Below are positions 1-63,232 of a DNA stretch of 64,000 nt, one piece after another. The notes beneath the pieces are model-generated. The model had not been told where the DNA came from and made no database searches. It saw nothing but the letters and a program-made list of their open reading frames with translations. A program made the position numbers and the translations under genes. Every line of letters begins with the position of its first letter. Within the stretch, counting starts at the first letter, position 1. This DNA comes from Octopus vulgaris (Eukaryota): assembly GCA_951406725.2 (NCBI GenBank), contig OX597819.1, positions 61,132,001 to 61,196,000 of the forward strand. The letters are read 5' to 3'.

Positions 1-268
1 TGCTAAGCATTTCGCCCGTCGTGCTAACGTTTCTTATTTCTTTACTATCTACAAGGGGCTAAATACAGAGGGGACAAACAAAGTCAGACAAAGGGATTAA
101 GTCGATTACATCGACCCCAGTGCGTAACTGGTGCTTATTTAATCGACTCCGAAAAGATGAAAGGCAAAGTCGACCTCGGCGGAATTTGAACTCAGAACGT
201 AACGGCAGACGAAATACGGCTACGCATTTCGCCCGGCGTGCTAACGTTTCTGCCAGCTCCCCACCTTT
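1..268 (-). mobile_element. tRNA-derived SINE family A (Nin-like central domain); one copy joined to the head of a second
   Basis: Matches the recurrent window consensus GGCGGCGAGCTGGCAGAAACGTTAGCACG...GAGTTCAAATTCCGCCGAGGTCGACTTTGCCTTTCATCCTTTCGGGGTCGATAAATTAAGTACCAG, which has A-box and B-box-like motifs. Confidence 0.85.
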
Positions 269-299
269 GGTATTAAATTTATCGACTTCCAAAGGACGA

Positions 300-14494: not shown

Positions 14495-14910
14495 AGTGAG
14501 CTGGCAGAAACGTTAGCACGCCGGGCGAAATGCGTAGCCGTATTTCGTCTGTCGTTACGTTCTGAGTTCAAATTCCGCCGAGGTCGACTTTGCCTTTCAT
14601 CCTTTCGGGGTCGATTAAGTAAGTACCAGTTACGCACTGGGGTCGATATAATAGACTTAATCCGTTTGTCTGTCCTTGTTTGTCCTCTCTGTGTTTAGCC
14701 CCTTGTGGGTAGTAAAGAAATAGGTATTTCGTCTGCCGTTACGTTCTGAGTTCAAATTCCGCCGAGGTCGACTTTGCCTTTCATCCTTTCGGGGTCGATT
14801 AAATAAGTACCAGTTACGCGCTGGGGTCGATATAATCGACTTAATCCGTTTTTCTGTCCTTGTTTGTCCCCTCTGTGCGGAGCCCCTTATGGGCAGTAAA
14901 GAAATAAGAA
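14495..14910 (+). mobile_element. Dimeric SINE family A (184-bp second unit)
   Basis: Two near-identical bodies joined at GAAATAGGTATTTC; flanking direct repeat AGAAATRGAGGATTTT. Confidence 0.9.
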
Positions 14911-21923: not shown

Positions 21924-22758
21924 GCATTAAATTAATCTTGGCTTTATTCAGTGTCTGTTGACAGAAATTTTTTTTTAAGATTGGCGAGGGTCTGTTGAAT
22001 GGTAAATAGGCTTTAAGATGGATTATGTTGAAGAGATGTTGTGAAGAAATCTTTATTGATTTAATTTGGGGTTATGTTATTGTTCAGAATTTATTCATGC
22101 ATATAGAACTTTGTAAACAATTGTGTATATTTAGGTGTGTCAGCTTAGGGTCATAGAATTGCCTTTTTTTTAAATAGTTCACAAAAAGGAAGTGGGTTGA
22201 TACCTACTTACTTCCTTCGTTGAAAAATATCTGTATGCAAGGGGTAAAGATGCATATTTATAACGAAAATATCATAGGCAGAATACGTGAGTTTAATATA
22301 TTTGAGAGAGTGTGATAAAAACTCATGGGTAACACTACAAAAGCAATCGTTATCGCTTTATGTGAGAGTTTGTGTATATTTATGTGTGCGCCTATGTGTG
22401 TAGGGAAGACTGTGTGTGTGACCATCTCACTGGGAATATATGTTTGAGATTATGCGTACATTTCTATACAAGTGCGCATGCGCTTGTACGTGTATTGTTT
22501 TGTTTGCTATTTTGAATATATGGATTGTCCCAACTTAAAACATGTGCTTGGAATAATAATATAAGCATTAGAAGTTTATAGCTTTTAGCAGTGTTACCGT
22601 ATGTATTTACCTGTAAATATGTGCATACGTGTGAGTACCTGTACGTGCATGCACATGTGTATATGTTCTTGTGTGTGTCAATAGTTAGCATAACCACTTG
22701 ATTAGAGCATACCGTAAGACGGTATGTGTGATTATGCGTGTTTGTATATGTATATATA

Positions 22759-22918
22759 GGTGCAGGGGTGGTTATGTGGTAAGTAGCTTGCTTACCAACC
22801 ACATGGTCCCGGGTTCACTCCCACTCCGTGGCACCTTGGTCAAGTGTCTTGTACTTTAGCCTCGGACCGACCAAAGCCTTGTGAGTGGATTTGGTAGGCG
22901 GAAATTGAGACGCCCACC

Positions 22919-22970
<52 letters not shown>

Positions 22971-23178
22971 GTCTCTGTGTTTGTCCCTCGCCATCGCTTG
23001 ACAACCGATGTTAGTGTCTTTACGTCCTCGTAACTTAGCGGGTTGGCAAAAGCGACCGACAGAATAAGTACTAGGCTTACAAAGAATAAGTCCTGGGGTC
23101 GATTTGTTCGGCTAAAAGTGGTGCACCAGCATGGCCACAGTCAGATGACTGAAACAAATAAAGGAATAAAAAAAGAAT
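22759..23178 (+). mobile_element. SINE family B, full-length with internal (TA)n
   Basis: Head, body and tail match the other family B copies. Confidence 0.9.
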
Positions 23179-23192
23179 GTATATATATATAG

Positions 23193-23427
23193 CATTATAA
23201 TATAATGCTGGCCCGCCTCGTCCGATCACTTTGTTGTCAATAATATATTTGCCAGTAATACATTGGGATTTATTTCCTGTTAGCACAACAAATTCTACAG
23301 TTCCATATGTGAGAGATGAGGAATTATGTACATTATTTATATTATTTACATTTGACGGGCATATGGCGAAGCGGTTAAGAGCCCGGGCTACTAACTCAAA
23401 GATTCCGAATTCAATTCCAGGTAGTGA

Positions 23428-23472
<45 letters not shown>

Positions 23473-23630
23473 TAACATCGGGAAAATACCTTAGGAATGA
23501 GAACCCAGGTTCGAAATTCCCTCAGGACACCTGATGAAGGCTGGAGAGTACATCAGCCGAAACGTGTGTTAACAACAAACAAGAGGAGGACGAATATCCG
23601 TCAAATGTAAATAATGTAAATAAAAAAAAT
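23193..23630 (+). mobile_element. PLE-derived insert: inverted 3' tail + tRNA-like head + (AAT)n + hammerhead
   Basis: Homologous to the 3' region of the PLE at 60787-61428; inverted repeat TTATTTACATTTGACGG (23342-23358) / CCGTCAAATGTAAATAA (23598-23614). Confidence 0.8.
23526..23570 (+). ncRNA. Minimal type I hammerhead ribozyme (cleavage-site nucleotide deleted in this copy)
   Basis: gacac CTGATGA aggctg-gagagtacat-cagcc GAAAC GT gtgtt. Confidence 0.75.
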
Positions 23631-23916
23631 TCTGTCTGCTCCCAATTACGTACACATTCACAAATACACACACACACAAACACAAATACGTATACATACA
23701 TGTTTGCATGTATATGCAAGTGTCTATATGAGTATAGGTGCGGATGGGTGAATACGTACCATCTGAATGATCACGCTGCCGGCGCCCGTGTATATATAAA
23801 AAATATTCTTATACATACACACATTTATACATACATACATACATACATACATATGTAAAGATAGATAGATAGATGAGTATAGACAAAACTAGAGAATGAG
23901 TGGCAGAGAGAGAGAC

Positions 23917-38274: not shown

Positions 38275-39135
38275 ACTTGTGGCTGAGTGGTTAAGAAGCT
38301 CACTTTGGTACCACACGGTTTCTGGTTCAGTCCTACTGTGTAGCATCTTCTACTACAGTTCAAGACCCACCAGTGCCTTTTGAGTATATTTGGTAAACGA
38401 AAACTGTGTGGAAGCCTGTTGTATATAGGTGTGTGAGAGTGTGTGTGTGTCTGTGTTTATCACCACCCACCACCACTTGTCAATCGGTCGTGATATATTT
38501 ACGTCCCGTACTTAGCGGTTCAGCAAAAGAGATATGTGTATGCGTATCTGTTTGTCTCCCCGCTGCTTGAAAACTGGTGTCGGTTTGTTTATGCCTCCGT
38601 AACATAGCGGTTCGTCAACAGAAACGGACTGAATAAATGAATATTCGGGTCAATTTGTTCGACTAAACGGATCTTTTCGGTTTGAACGGCAGTTTTTTCT
38701 AGTGGTGTCATATGCAATTGTCACCCATAATTATGACCCTAGTATCGATCTATTGCATTTCAATCTGTTTTAGGGTTAGGGTTAGGGGTGGGGGGAAGGG
38801 TATATTTTTTTGCTTCACAAATGTAAATAAACTCAATCTGTTTCTTAAACGAGGGACATATTCATACGGCACAGAATGTTTTTTTTACCTCAATAGACGT
38901 CAGTGATTGGTTGAAATTGCAGAAATTGAAGAAAAAAAACAACAAATATCTTGCAAACTATAGAATTTTCTCAATAAAGCAAAGAGAAAAAGATGTTTTA
39001 TAAACACATTCTACCAGTATACGAAGTTAAAAATTTTTTAGTTACCTAGAAATTATGTTAAAAACTGCCGTTCAAACCGAAAAGATCCGACTAACTGTCC
39101 ATAGGAAGTCCCTGACTGAAACTAATAAAAGGATA
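38275..39135 (+). mobile_element. Diverged SINE family B interrupted by a Merlin-like MITE
   Basis: Head TGGCTGAGTGGTTAAGAAGC; the tail resumes after 39088 (TGACTGAAAC). Confidence 0.75.
38669..39088 (+). mobile_element. MITE with 28-bp GG-terminated TIRs (Merlin-like) carrying TTAGGG repeats
   Basis: TIR GGATCTTTTCGGTTTGAACGGCAGTTTT is perfect at both ends; flanks GACTAAAC / GACTAACT form an approximately 8-bp TSD. Superfamily is inferred. Confidence 0.85.
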
Positions 39136-43951: not shown

Positions 43952-44012
43952 CTGTCTATAAAAGGCTATAAACTCAGCCTTGGTTTTTTATCTCATTACG
44001 AAAAAAAGTTTT

Positions 44013-44443
44013 GGATCTTTTCGGTTTGAACGGCAGTTTTTAACATAATTTCTAGATAACTAAAAAATTTTAAACTTCGTATACTGGTAGAATGTGTTTA
44101 TAAAATATCTTTTTCTCTTGGCTTTATTGAGAAAATTCTATAGTTTGTAAGATATTTGTTGTTTTTTTCTTCAATTTCTGCAATTTCAACCAATCAATGA
44201 CGTCCATTGAGGTAAACAACATTCTGTGCCGTATGAATATATCCCTCGTTTAAGAAACAGATTGGGTTTATTTACATTTGTGAAGAAAAAAAGATACCCT
44301 TCCTCCCACCCCACCCCTAACCCTAACAAACCTTAACCCTAAAATAGATTGAAATGCAATAGATCGATACTAGGGTTATAGTTATTGGTGACAATTTCAT
44401 ACGACACCGCTAGAAAAAACTGCCGTTTAAACCGAAAAGATCC
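44013..44443 (-). mobile_element. Second copy of the Merlin-like MITE, opposite orientation
   Basis: Same TIRs, internal CCCTAA repeats, flanks AAAGTTTT / AAATATTT. Confidence 0.85.
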
Positions 44444-44489
44444 AAATATTTATATTCATGTATATTAGTTTCGAGGATATTCAAGGAGA

Positions 44490-46249: not shown

Positions 46250-47023
46250 CTCGTTTTGGCAGAGTTGACCTCACCAAAGAGCTGGAGCAAATGCTAAAAA
46301 GCGTTTTTTCCCGTAGCTTCAATGATTCTGCCAGTGAGCCGCCTTGATAAACATGATTATTCGGTACAAAGACCAGGAAGTTGTTGGGGCTGGGGCTTAA
46401 GTCGATTACATCGATCCCAGTGTCCAACTGGTACTTATATTTATCGACCTCGAAAAGATGAATGGCAAAGTCAACTTCAGCAGAATTTGAACTCAGAACA
46501 TGAAGACGGACGAAGAACCGCAAATTGTTTTCCTCGGCGTGCTAATGATTCTAGTAGCTCGCTGTCTTTAAATATATCTTCTAAATACTTGACTATTCTT
46601 TTCTTATTTCTTTATTGCCCACAAGAGGCTAAACATAGAGGGGAAAACAAGGACAGACAAAGGGCTTAAGTCGATTATATCGACCCCAGTGTGTAACTGG
46701 TACTTAATTTATCGACCCCGAAAGAATGAAAGGCAAAGTCGACCTCGGCGGAATTTGAACTCACAACGTAGCGGCAGACGAAATACCTATTTCTTTACTA
46801 CTCCCAAGGGGCTAAACACAGAGAGGACAAACAAGGACAGACAAACGGATTAAGTCGTTTATATCGACGCCAGTACGTAACTGGTACTTAACTTATCGAC
46901 CCCGAAAGGATGAAAGGCAAAGTCGACCTCAGCGGAATTTGAACTCAGAACGTAACGGCAGACGAAATACTGCTAAATATTTCGCCCGGCGTGCTAACGT
47001 CTCTGCCAGCTCCTCGCCGCCTT
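46250..47023 (-). mobile_element. Stack of family A SINEs: two old copies plus a young dimer (46600-47023)
   Basis: Dimer junction GAAATACCTATTTC at 46780 with 184-bp period; TSD-like TAAATACTTGACTATT / TAAATATTTGAATATT. Confidence 0.85.
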
Positions 47024-48607: not shown

Positions 48608-48657
<50 letters not shown>

Positions 48658-48696
48658 TAAAAAATGGAGTTAACGCAGGTTTAAACAAGTATTTTT

Positions 48697-48782
48697 ACTT
48701 TCGACACATGTTTCGAAAATTCCACTGATACTATTCAAAAGAATAAATGGTATAAACAATGCAATCTTCTCTTCGGGAAAGT
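48697..48782 (-). ncRNA. Type I hammerhead, CCGAAGA core, long stem II (left arm copy)
   Basis: Reverse complement of 49607-49692. Confidence 0.75.
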
Positions 48783-48983
48783 GAAAAAAACGAAACTCGT
48801 CAATACGACATTTTAGCAAAAAATGATGGATTTGTATAGCGATAGACCGAACGCTATTAATATTGTTTAAAAAAACGTTATATAATATAACGTCATAAGT
48901 AGCTAACAGAAAGAGTAGGGATATTAATAGTGAATGTTAAATATAAAGGAAATTAAAGTTTAAATTATATATAATGATAGAGA

Positions 48984-49319
48984 CTACTTATATGCACTAA
49001 ATGTATGTTTCTGCCAATGCTTACATCTGTATGCTCGTTCTATAACCGTGTTTACTAGAGTATTTTTAGAAAAAATAATGAAAAATAGCTCAGAATTGCA
49101 GAGAAGACAGAATTTCTTGCCTTTGTCATATGGTATCGAAATTGAGAGGATCAACCATTCTAAATGAAATTGTTCATTGTGGTCTTTTAAATCCCAAATC
49201 AGTTTGCTGAGACCGGTACTATTCCGTTTATTTCTATCCCTAAATGTTGAGTAATGGATAGAAATTCTTTTAGATAACTCTAACGATGTGCTTCCAATGT
49301 AAAATCGTACTTTATTACT
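48984..49319 (-). pseudogene. PLE GIY-YIG endonuclease C-terminal fragment; 111 open codons with no start, absent from the ORF track
   Basis: Manual translation: SNKVRFYIGSTSLELSKRISIHYSTFRDRNKRNSTGLSKLIWDLKDHNEQFHLEWLILSISIPYDKGKKFCLLCNSELFFIIFSKNTLVNTVIERAYRCKHWQKHTFSAYK*. The YIG-T, R-x3-H, LS-x2-IW-x-LK and CxLC..CxH motifs resemble Neptune-type PLEs. Confidence 0.85.
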
Positions 49320-49606
49320 CTAAAAATACTCTAGTAAACACGGTTATAGAACGAGCATACAGATGTAAGCATTGGCAGAAACATACGTTTAGTGCATATA
49401 AGTAGTCTCTATCATTATATATAATTTAAACTTTAATTTCCTTTATATTTAACATTCACTATTAATATCCCTACTCATTCTGTTAGCTACTTATGACGTT
49501 ATATCATATAACGTTTTTTTAAACAATATTAATAGCGTTCTGTCTATCGCTATACAAATCCATCATTTTTTGCTAAAATGTCTTATTGACGAGTTTCGTT
49601 TTTTTC

Positions 49607-49692
49607 ACTTTCCCGAAGAGAAGATTGCATTGTTTATACCATTTATTCTTTTGAATAGTATCAGTGGAATTTTCGAAACATGTGTCGAAAGT
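49607..49692 (+). ncRNA. Type I hammerhead, CCGAAGA core, long stem II (right arm copy)
   Basis: actttc CCGAAGA gaagattgcattg...cagtggaattttc GAAAC atgt GTC gaaagt; perfect 6-bp stem I. Confidence 0.78.
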
Positions 49693-49888
49693 AAAAATAC
49701 TTGTTTAAACCTGCGTTAACTCCATTTTTTATTCATATTATTCAAAATATTCAACGTAAACACGAAGTTTCAACCTTTATAAACAAGGAGTTACAACATC
49801 TTTACTTGTGAGATTTTTGCTGCCCTGGTAACTATTTATTTATTTATTTTTCCGTGTTAATTGTTAACAAGGTAAAACTACACTCATC

Positions 49889-60716: not shown

Positions 60717-60833
60717 ACACACACACGCACGCACACTCACACGCGCGCGCGCGCACACACACACACGCACATACATATACGTACATACATTATTTACATT
60801 TGACGGATATTTGTCCTCCTCTTGTTTGTTGTT

Positions 60834-60879
60834 AACACAACTTTTCGGCTGATAAACCCTCCTGCCTTCTTCAGGTGTC
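60834..60879 (-). ncRNA. Minimal type I hammerhead, same family as 23526-23570
   Basis: gacac CTGAAGA aggcag-gagggtttat-cagcc GAAAA GTT gtgtt. Confidence 0.7.
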
Positions 60880-61011
60880 TTGGGGAAATTTCGAACCTGG
60901 TCATTTTTCGATATAATTATTATTATTACTATTATTATTCAGGTCTCTGAATGGAATCGAACTCTGAAACTTGGGGTCAGTAGCCCACACTCTTAACCAC
61001 TACGCCAGGGC

Positions 61012-61404
61012 TTATAAATCTAATATTTTCCTATCCTTCTCTAATACCGGTTCCCATATGCTACTCATGTCAGCACCCGGTTTGCTTAGGAGGTTGTTGT
61101 GTCCTAACATATGTGCTGCTTCTTTTAGTTTTCGGATTTTCCAGTGGTATTCTCTATTATTTTAACTTCATCCCACAGGTGGATGTGGTCTCCGTTTTTC
61201 CATACATGATCAGCTATACCTGATTTATCAATATCTCCTTGTGTCACAGCTTTGCGATGTTCGTCTACTCTTATTTTGAGTGGGGCGGCATGTTTCGCCT
61301 TTGTATAACCAACCACAGCTGCATGGGATAGAGTACACGCAGTCTTTGGTCATATTCTCTTCTATTGGTGGTTTTACTCGGAGATATTTGCGAAGTGTTG
61401 AGTA
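61012..61404 (-). pseudogene. PLE (Penelope/Poseidon-like) GIY-YIG endonuclease fragment with two frameshifts
   Basis: STLRKYLRVKPPIEENMTKDCVYSIPCSCGWLYKGETCRP/LKIRVDEHRKAVTQGDIDKSGIADHVWKNGDHIHLWDEVKII/REYHWKIRKLKEAAHMLGHNNLLSKPGADMSSIWEPVLEKDRKILDL*. Contains the VY-x-IPC-x-C, GET-x-R, EH, DH and KEA motifs of PLE endonucleases. Confidence 0.88.
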
Positions 61405-61428
61405 ATACAACACTTCACAAATATCTCA

Positions 61429-62569: not shown

Positions 62570-63178
62570 TCGCCTGGAGAATTGCTAGAAAATATGAGAT
62601 GTATAGTGAAAACAAACTGGACGATAGTACCCTGTCACCAGCGCCAGATTCAGGACAAATGAGGCCCTGTGATGGTTAAGTTACGAGGCCCCTTATTTAG
62701 ACAGTCAGACATATATGCTCAGAAAATCCATAGTAATAAAATTTTGGGGTAGGAAGATGCCCTCCTCACTAGTCGCCAGGAGAACTCTTAGAAAATATGA
62801 GATGTATAGTGAAAACGAACTGGACGATAGTACCCTGTCACCAGCGCCGGATTTAGGACAAATGAGGCCCTGTGATGGTTAAGTTATGAGGCCCCTTATT
62901 TGGACAGTCAGACATATATGCTCAGGAAATTCGTTGTAAGAAAATTTTGAGGCAGAAATATGCCCTCCCCACTGGTCGCCAGGAGAATTGCTAGAAAATA
63001 TGAGATGTATAGTGAAAATAAACTGCACGATAGTACCATGTCACCAGCACAATATTTAGGACAAATGAGGCCCTGTGATGGTTAAGTTACAAAGTCCCTT
63101 ACTTGGACAGTCAGACATATATGCTCAGGAAATTCATTGTAAAAAAATTTGGGGGCAGGAAGATGCTCTCCCCACTGG
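62570..63178. repeat. Three tandem 203-bp units
   Basis: Units start with TCGCC at 62570, 62773 and 62976. Confidence 0.92.
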
Positions 63179-63232
63179 TCAACGGGACCCTGTGCTTAAG
63201 CATACCTAAGCACAATGGTAAATCGGGCACTG
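62639..63232. mobile_element. hAT-type MITE (about 188 bp) with triplicated left end
   Basis: Left TIR CAGCGCCGGATTTA (variants at 62639, 62842, 63045), right TIR TAAATCGGGCACTG (63219-63232), 8-bp TSD CCTGTCAC. Confidence 0.82.

What the first reader, a model, noticed from the sequence alone, without database searches (positions are those of the whole stretch)
23193..23630. Stand-alone tRNA-(AAT)n-hammerhead insert: candidate Penelope-mobilised SINE
Seen: this copy has no ORF sequence. Its sense part starts at about 23357, at the beginning of the tRNA-like head, and is fused to an inverted copy of the element's own 3' tail beside a (TA)n tract, the same fold-back geometry as other PLE inserts here. 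Inference: a start coinciding with the predicted Pol III start suggests the template was a short Pol III transcript copied by PLE reverse transcriptase, making it a SINE-like derivative that depends on a PLE and not a LINE. The closest known analogues are schistosome SM-alpha (tRNA-related repeat with HHR) and metazoan retrozymes.
Basis: partly seen in the sequence, partly recalled or inferred. Interest (0 to 1): 0.78.

Follow-up and report, generated by a model that had tools for sequence, protein, structure and literature searches.

The report
Penelope retrotransposon with a tRNA head
This insert is a short piece of a Penelope-type jumping gene whose front end is a tRNA-like sequence, likely an RNA polymerase III promoter, and most copies that reach that head stop right at it, likely because the element's enzyme starts copying near the front of its own RNA and runs off the end, so they mimic a SINE with no sign of a separate SINE lineage.

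Summary
The tRNA-like head, (AAT)n tract, hammerhead and inverted tail are real. The insert is 23297-~23623; 23193-23296 is flank and the (TA)n belongs to a neighbouring repeat. The family is abundant (11,059 exact hits of one 19-mer). The predicted 5' peak exists: 74 of 90 arms holding the A box end at -11..+8, against 6-10% expected. But this is not a separate SINE. The unit is the pseudo-LTR of an autonomous Penelope/Poseidon-like element. The ORF's ATG lies inside it (23497), so hammerhead and tail are the first ~52 codons. Head-start and ORF-linked arms have the same majority sequence and intermix on a tree. At least four template-jump junctions land exactly on G-6, marking the RNA 5' end. 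Likely mechanism: transcription from the tRNA-derived head; reverse transcription starts internally (~+240 and ~+270) from both target strands, runs to the RNA start, and the two cDNAs join head-to-head. Pol III use is inferred (family A/B boxes intact; no TTTT on the 2.65-kb sense strand, weak). No RNA data could be examined. This copy looks dead. My searches found no report of a tRNA-headed Penelope element; Repbase/Dfam were not checkable.

The parts
23285..23296 (+). left copy of target-site-like duplication (7 exact, 10 of 12)
   Evidence: sequence; 16 of 41 tail-bearing arms showed 11-17 bp duplications
23297..23358 (-). short arm, about +209 to +270 of the unit, ending in the complete PLE tail
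23355..23358 (.). 4-nt overlap joining the two arms head-to-head
23357..23431 (+). tRNA-derived head (closest to tRNA-Arg among 35 tRNAs tested); A box 23364-23374, B box 23407-23418 (two G>A changes in this copy)
23432..23475 (+). (AAT)n tract in the inferred 5' UTR; variable length across copies
23497..23623 (+). start of the PLE ORF (ATG 23497); frame broken in this copy at the missing hammerhead base
23526..23570 (+). minimal type I hammerhead (core 23531-23537, extra A 23538, stem II 23539-43/23554-58, palindromic helix III); cleavage-site base absent in this copy
23598..23623 (+). end of the long arm at about +244, the inner of the two family 3' ends
23622..23633 (+). right copy of target-site-like duplication
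60786..61422 (-). second family copy: endonuclease-region ORF end (61422-61010) joined to head, AAT and hammerhead (61007-60786)

Best explanation
The insert is a head-to-head pair of pieces of the pseudo-LTR of an autonomous Penelope-like element whose unit begins with a tRNA-derived head, likely a Pol III promoter, and it likely arose when the element's reverse transcriptase copied the front of its own RNA. Shown: unit order head - (AAT)n - ATG - hammerhead - tail - rest of ORF - short 3' UTR - next head; two fixed 3' ends; target duplications; a sharp 5' peak at the head; jumps onto G-6; no separate SINE lineage. Inferred: (1) RNA starts at about G-6; (2) A/B boxes drive it through Pol III; (3) as in the anole element PAc, the protein nicks both target strands and primes internally at about +240 and +270; (4) each cDNA runs towards the RNA start, only 250-300 nt away, and most end there like strong-stop DNA; (5) the two cDNAs join by microhomology or snap-back; (6) a minority jump to an RNA 3' end or use tandem read-through RNA, giving ORF-linked and full-length copies. 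Solo copies would be mostly dead ends because they lack the ORF-start stretch that PAc needs for binding. The template may be full-length RNA or shorter RNAs from the same promoter.
For: Breakpoints: 74 of 90 A-box arms end at -11..+8, mode +1 (18); 41 of the 74 are joined to flank or to a partner arm far from the head, so snap-back does not explain them. Genome-wide exact 19-mer counts step at the head: 767 (about -200), 1,142 (about -30), 5,491 (+30), 11,059 (+186). ORF start inside the unit aligns with the N-terminus of P0008 (41%, E 1e-44); L420 is a real copy running from the head into the ORF. Jumps from ORF-start sequence onto G-6: L258, L267, L409/L411, L412. 3' ends: 41 of 99 at +265..269, 51 of 99 at +235..244, like the two PAc initiation sites (PMC11167929). 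Same majority base at all 226 positions in 60 linked and 144 head-start arms; tree 28 label changes versus 31.5 (25-35) in 200 shuffles. Family A/B boxes intact; no TTTT in 2,650 nt, 4.7 expected, P 0.009, whereas 62 related PLE loci have 292 versus 217 expected.
Against: No RNA evidence was obtained. TTTT depletion is weak: P 0.018-0.087 with codon-aware nulls, GGGG is also absent, and a related family without a tRNA head (L348, L352) also has none over 2 kb of ORF. An uncapped Pol III RNA would be a poor mRNA, so a second, Pol II or read-through, RNA may supply protein. 33 of 74 head ends are snap-back or head-to-head at a natural near-palindrome around the head start. 14 of 30 ORF-start arms end at +468..+535 (lower edge set by the query), which suggests short RNAs are common templates. 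A young SINE lineage could be hidden at 6-7% copy divergence. The internal-priming model is borrowed from PAc, not tested here.
Confidence: 0.62

Rival explanations
1. One reading: dedicated non-autonomous masters make a short Pol III RNA that the PLE enzyme copies in trans, a true PLE-dependent SINE.
For: Sharp 5' peak at the head; short copies dominate; tandem mini-units head..+503 exist (L409, L411).
Against: No diagnostic sites, the +64 A/G split is shared (14:32 versus 44:91, p 0.72); no clade; the unit holds the ORF start and the head sits in the autonomous element; no T-run terminator; the +503 junction has only 2 exact copies genome-wide.
Confidence: 0.15
2. The RNA is a longer Pol II or read-through transcript, and the peak comes from processing (RNase P-like cut at +1) or from the hairpin around the head start that stalls or folds back the cDNA; the tRNA head is then a processing or stop signal and not a promoter.
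For: Mode at exactly +1 (18 of 74); near-palindrome folds at -11.6 kcal/mol; 33 of 74 junctions are snap-back type; 5' palindromes and self-priming are described for rotifer pLTRs (PMC3846280); tandem read-through copies exist (L417, L421, L424).
Against: 35 of 74 ends extend upstream of +1 and jumps land on G-6, which a cut at +1 cannot give; the head does not fold as a cloverleaf; 41 of 74 junctions need no fold-back; both promoter boxes are kept in the family.
Confidence: 0.18
3. Ordinary random 5' truncation of PLE copies; the start at the tRNA head is coincidence.
For: A background gradient exists: 35 of 99 arms end inside the head or after the AAT tract; this copy's junction has a 4-nt microhomology.
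Against: 74 of 90 stop within about 20 nt where 6-10% is expected (binomial P below 1e-58 if independent); loss per base is 6-9 times higher across the head start than on either side.
Confidence: 0.02

Closest known systems
Penelope/Poseidon PLE of green anole (PAc; PMC11167929, parts 1-2 of 4 read)
   Same: RT 40% identical to an Anolis carolinensis protein; hammerhead overlapping the ORF start; two 3' ends about 30 nt apart (tail); insertions consistent with both target strands being extended.
   Different: No tRNA-like promoter is mentioned in the parts read; here the pLTR starts with A/B boxes and most copies end at that start.
Adineta vaga Penelope families (PMC3846280, passages) and D. 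virilis Penelope (PMC2377424, abstract)
   Same: pLTR includes first codons, head-to-head inversions, 5' palindromes, solo pLTRs, target duplications.
   Different: Promoters described as TATA/Inr or TATA-less LINE-like; none tRNA-derived in what I read.
Schistosome Sm-alpha / Sj-alpha (PMC2770079, passages; the 1998 paper was not held)
   Same: High-copy tRNA-related repeat with a hammerhead.
   Different: Described as SINE-like; no autonomous PLE carrying the same head is stated in the passages read. Whether Sm-alpha is the same kind of by-product was not tested.
Animal non-LTR retrozymes (PMC7229834 passages; bioRxiv 10.64898/2026.07.22.740005 part 1 of 5 and passages)
   Same: pLTR-derived, type I hammerhead, PLE-mobilised, no complete ORF.
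   Different: Defined as head-to-tail tandems giving circular RNA; here copies are mostly dispersed head-to-head pairs; 'tRNA' occurs 0 times in the preprint's main text.
TRIMp3: Cassandra, Helenus, Ajax (PMC10886601, passages)
   Same: Small-RNA-derived Pol III promoter inside a terminal repeat.
   Different: Non-autonomous LTR elements under 1.3 kb; here the promoter-like head belongs to a protein-coding 2.65-kb PLE unit.

Membership tests
EN+ Penelope-like element | single ORF with PLE-type RT | tested here: met
   Pfam RVT_1 E 1e-9; 148 homologues, named ones from sea urchin, lizard and others; 40% to Anolis protein
EN+ Penelope-like element | C-terminal GIY-YIG endonuclease | tested here: inconclusive
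   C-terminal region resembles that of P0008/P0043 by eye and some homologues carry PF01541, but Pfam gave no hit on the L079 fragment
EN+ Penelope-like element | pLTR with hammerhead, optional 30-40 nt tail, inverted 5'-truncated arm, target duplication | tested here: met
Penelope/Poseidon clade | phylogenetic placement; no Zn-finger linker between RT and EN | not tested
   no protein tree built; assignment rests on pairwise similarity only
Minimal type I hammerhead of PLEs | core, extra base between 9 and 10.1, G10.1-C11.1, palindromic 15.2-16.2 (PMC4209133) | tested here: met
   family level: 48 of 200 copies keep the whole core; same core with different stems in L335. The window copy lacks the cleavage-site base
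Minimal type I hammerhead of PLEs | self-cleavage | not testable with these tools
   needs in vitro assay
tRNA-derived SINE | tRNA-derived head with A and B boxes at the 5' end | tested here: met
tRNA-derived SINE | non-coding lineage that evolves apart from its partner | tested here: not met
   contains ORF start; no diagnostic sites or clade
tRNA-derived SINE | shares only a 3' tail with the partner element | tested here: not met
   the whole unit, head included, is part of the autonomous element
tRNA-derived SINE | Pol III transcription | not testable with these tools
   no RNA data available; only box motifs and weak TTTT depletion
Non-LTR retrozyme | head-to-tail tandem of short units, each with a hammerhead | tested here: not met
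   arms are mostly head-to-head pairs or single; a few partial tandems only
Non-LTR retrozyme | circular RNA | not testable with these tools
   no RNA data

The most novel reading that the evidence does not exclude
An autonomous, protein-coding retrotransposon captured a tRNA-Arg-like Pol III promoter and purged T-run terminators from its whole 2.65-kb sense strand, so Pol III makes the full transposition RNA (and perhaps an uncapped mRNA). Its strong-stop-like by-products, over ten thousand tRNA-hammerhead inserts, show a LINE-free route to SINEs and may explain Sm-alpha-type repeats.
Probability: 0.3. Interest if true: 0.8.

Novelty: new variant of a known kind. Interest (0 to 1): 0.58.

Why it matters
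PLE promoters and the PLE copying cycle are poorly understood. This family gives thousands of natural products whose two ends can be mapped: they fit the in vitro internal-initiation model, give a candidate RNA start to the base (G-6) and record template jumps. A tRNA-derived promoter in a protein-coding retrotransposon would extend the TRIMp3 idea to autonomous elements and makes a direct test possible of whether Pol III can supply a retrotransposon mRNA. Practically, such inserts will be annotated as SINEs although they behave as solo pseudo-LTRs.

Tried and rejected
Rfam and ARAGORN found neither tRNA nor hammerhead in the family or in related loci. Folding alone gives no signal (z -1.2 and +0.4). 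No expression data could be examined, so the proposed Northern/RT-PCR check stays open. Earlier scan notes: none. A shared mini-master at the +503 junction was rejected as a major source (2 copies). The 28 of 99 arms that begin at the AAT tract are not a second start peak: 5 rows (4 loci) have the head further upstream and many follow other repeats' tails. A second tRNA-headed PLE (L335) is inconclusive: only the B-box half scores (7.1 bits), it also has a TATA-like motif and two TTTT runs near its start; 21 of 22 related pLTRs score nothing. Negative blast starts of -13/-16 are alignment artefacts of the near-palindrome. Identity with octopus OR1/OR2 SINEs seems unlikely because passages class them as CORE SINEs, but their sequences were not compared.

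Full report
Numbering: +1 is the first G of the tRNA-like head (window 23357), no zero; positions past the AAT tract follow a working reference built in scripts from genomic copies. The window lies in a 2.8-Gb animal genome. Its repeats reminded me of octopus (recalled, confirmed by no call).

Observation. The plus strand reads head (23357-23431), (AAT)n (23432-23475), spacer, hammerhead (23526-23570) and a tail ending near 23623. A 62-nt minus-strand arm (23297-23358) carries the complete family tail and shares 4 nt with the start of the plus arm. A target-site-like repeat flanks the pair (23285-23296, 23622-23633). 23193-23296 matched nothing but itself, and the (TA)n ends a different repeat. 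Rfam and ARAGORN do not call the head. A profile from 35 tRNAs found in 30 loci of this genome does (family 20.2 bits, this copy 7.4; 0 of 500 shuffles at 3 bits or more). The four best pairwise matches among those tRNAs are tRNA-Arg (48-51 of 74 identical); the set is not the genome's full tRNA complement. The hammerhead fits the minimal PLE type described in PMC4209133 (passages); 48 of 200 copies keep the whole core, but this copy lacks the cleavage-site base and has a damaged B box, so it is probably inert.

What the family is. A second window copy (61422-60786, minus) has the same unit directly behind an ORF end. Walking upstream gave RT-bearing copies and a full-length decayed copy, L118: inverted arm, tail, ORF, head, hammerhead, tail. 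Homologues are PLE-type proteins, 40% identical to an Anolis protein; no tree was built. The ORF begins inside the unit at about +115 (window 23497): the reading frame through hammerhead and tail aligns with the N-terminus of P0008 (41%, E 1e-44), and L420 is a real copy that runs from -2 through the head into the ORF to +612. The unit is 2,652 nt and starts with the head.

Breakpoints. Sample 1: the first 100 of 11,059 exact hits of a hammerhead-tail 19-mer (first 21 Mb of C1) gave 99 distinct arms (one dropped, evidently as a duplicate): 5 extend upstream of -16, 31 end at the head start, 11 inside the head, 28 at the AAT tract (often split by later insertions), 24 after it. Sample 2: the first 90 of 2,038 exact A-box hits (10 more listed were not fetched): 74 end at -11..+8 (mode +1, 18), 16 continue, from -19 to beyond -1,000 (one ambiguous; three pairs look like segmental duplicates and were kept). 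Genome-wide exact counts of 19-mers are 767, 1,142, 5,491 and 11,059 at about -200, -30, +30 and +186; background loss predicts 6-10% stopping in that window. Of the 74, 29 have a partner arm that also ends near the head, 4 are mini snap-backs, 24 join a far partner and 17 join flank or other sequence. Both samples come from one chromosome and favour better-preserved copies. 3' ends are bimodal: 41 of 99 at +265..269, 51 of 99 at +235..244; 16 of 41 tail-bearing arms gave an 11-17 bp duplication with at most one mismatch.

RNA start. In L258, L267, L409, L411 and L412 ORF-start sequence ending at +485, +417, +503, +503 and +523 is joined, mostly through a few A's, to the head exactly at G-6. 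L409 and L411 share one junction, which has only 2 exact copies, so I count at least four events. The palindrome cannot make these, so they are best read as jumps off the RNA 5' end. Among 30 loci chosen for ORF-start sequence, 14 arms end at +468..+535 (lower edge set by the query) and 3 show ORF end - head - ORF start tandems.

SINE or by-product. 60 ORF-linked and 144 head-start arms have the same majority base at all 226 positions; sites with p below 0.01 are CpG, gap or end-repeat positions that I attribute to how the samples were picked; divergence is 6-7%. On a tree of the 147 arms with fewer than 50 gaps, the label changes 28 times against 31.5 (25-35) in 200 shuffles. There is no T-run terminator in the unit. 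So no separate lineage is visible, although a star-like tree has limited power.

Mechanism. Frangieh et al. (PMC11167929, parts 1-2 of 4) showed that the anole PLE protein cuts and extends both target strands, primes at two internal sites that bracket the tail and needs the first 172 nt of the ORF. Applied here (inference): an RNA that starts at the head is primed at about +240 and +270 from the two target strands; both cDNAs run 5'-ward, most reach the RNA start or stop earlier, and they join head-to-head. In the window copy one cDNA ran from +244 to -2 and the other from +270 to +209. Longer copies need a jump or tandem RNA (16 of 90 pass the head into the native upstream sequence). That Pol III makes the RNA is inferred from intact family A/B boxes (box motifs as in PMC10886601), a purine start just upstream of the head (typical Pol III behaviour, recalled) and absence of TTTT on the sense strand: 0 versus 4.7, P 0.009; codon-aware P 0.018 and 0.087; GGGG also 0; 15 versus 101 in 30 non-independent real copies; 292 versus 217 in 62 related loci, but 0 over 2 kb of ORF in a family with no tRNA head. 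This is suggestive only. No RNA data could be examined.

Relatives. Of 27 related loci given to, 22 had a recognisable hammerhead behind the ORF; 1 (L335) has a partial tRNA-like match, 7 have a TATA-like motif. The tRNA head therefore looks lineage-specific.

Literature. Searches (0 papers) listed no paper whose title or abstract start describes a tRNA-headed PLE. Passages read: PMC8557442, PMC13282606, PMC7229834, PMC4209133, PMC10886601, PMC2770079, the 2026 retrozyme preprint (part 1 of 5 and passages; 33, 90), PMC8967140, PMC4758252, PMC4824008, PMC3846280; abstract only: PMC2377424. Not seen: Ferbeyre 1998, Ohshima and Okada 1994, Repbase, Dfam, and all supplements, where such a family could already be listed.

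Verdict. Real feature; a new variant of a known kind. It works like a SINE at the level of insert shape but fails the SINE tests of independence. Best reading 0.62, processing or hairpin rival 0.18, true SINE 0.15, random truncation 0.02. Interest 0.58.

Noticed in passing
L241, L286, L049, L096, L123, L140: The family's (AAT)n tract is often split by later insertions; two contain LINE-like coding sequence that I recall as R4/Dong-type, others are AAT-tailed short repeats.
   Followed up: partly
L335:2815-3030: Intact tandem PLE (unit 2,791 nt) from a metagenome contig with a B-box-like stretch ending in CCA, short AAT run, hammerhead and ORF start in the same order; also a TATA-like motif.
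   Followed up: partly
window 22742-23191: A different tRNA-like short repeat with an internal (TA)n, present in about ten partial or whole copies in the window.
   Followed up: no
window 14540-14906 and 46605-46970: 184-nt tandem dimers of another abundant short repeat.
   Followed up: no
window 48651-49738: 420-nt inverted repeat at 98.8% identity with a 248-nt spacer.
   Followed up: no
window 38668-39089 and 44010-44446: Two 91%-identical elements of about 430 nt with 30-nt terminal inverted repeats, MITE-like.
   Followed up: no
window 62570-63180: Three tandem copies of a 203-nt unit.
   Followed up: no
window 61010-61007: The second family copy lacks about 30 nt between the ORF stop region and the A box.
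   Followed up: no
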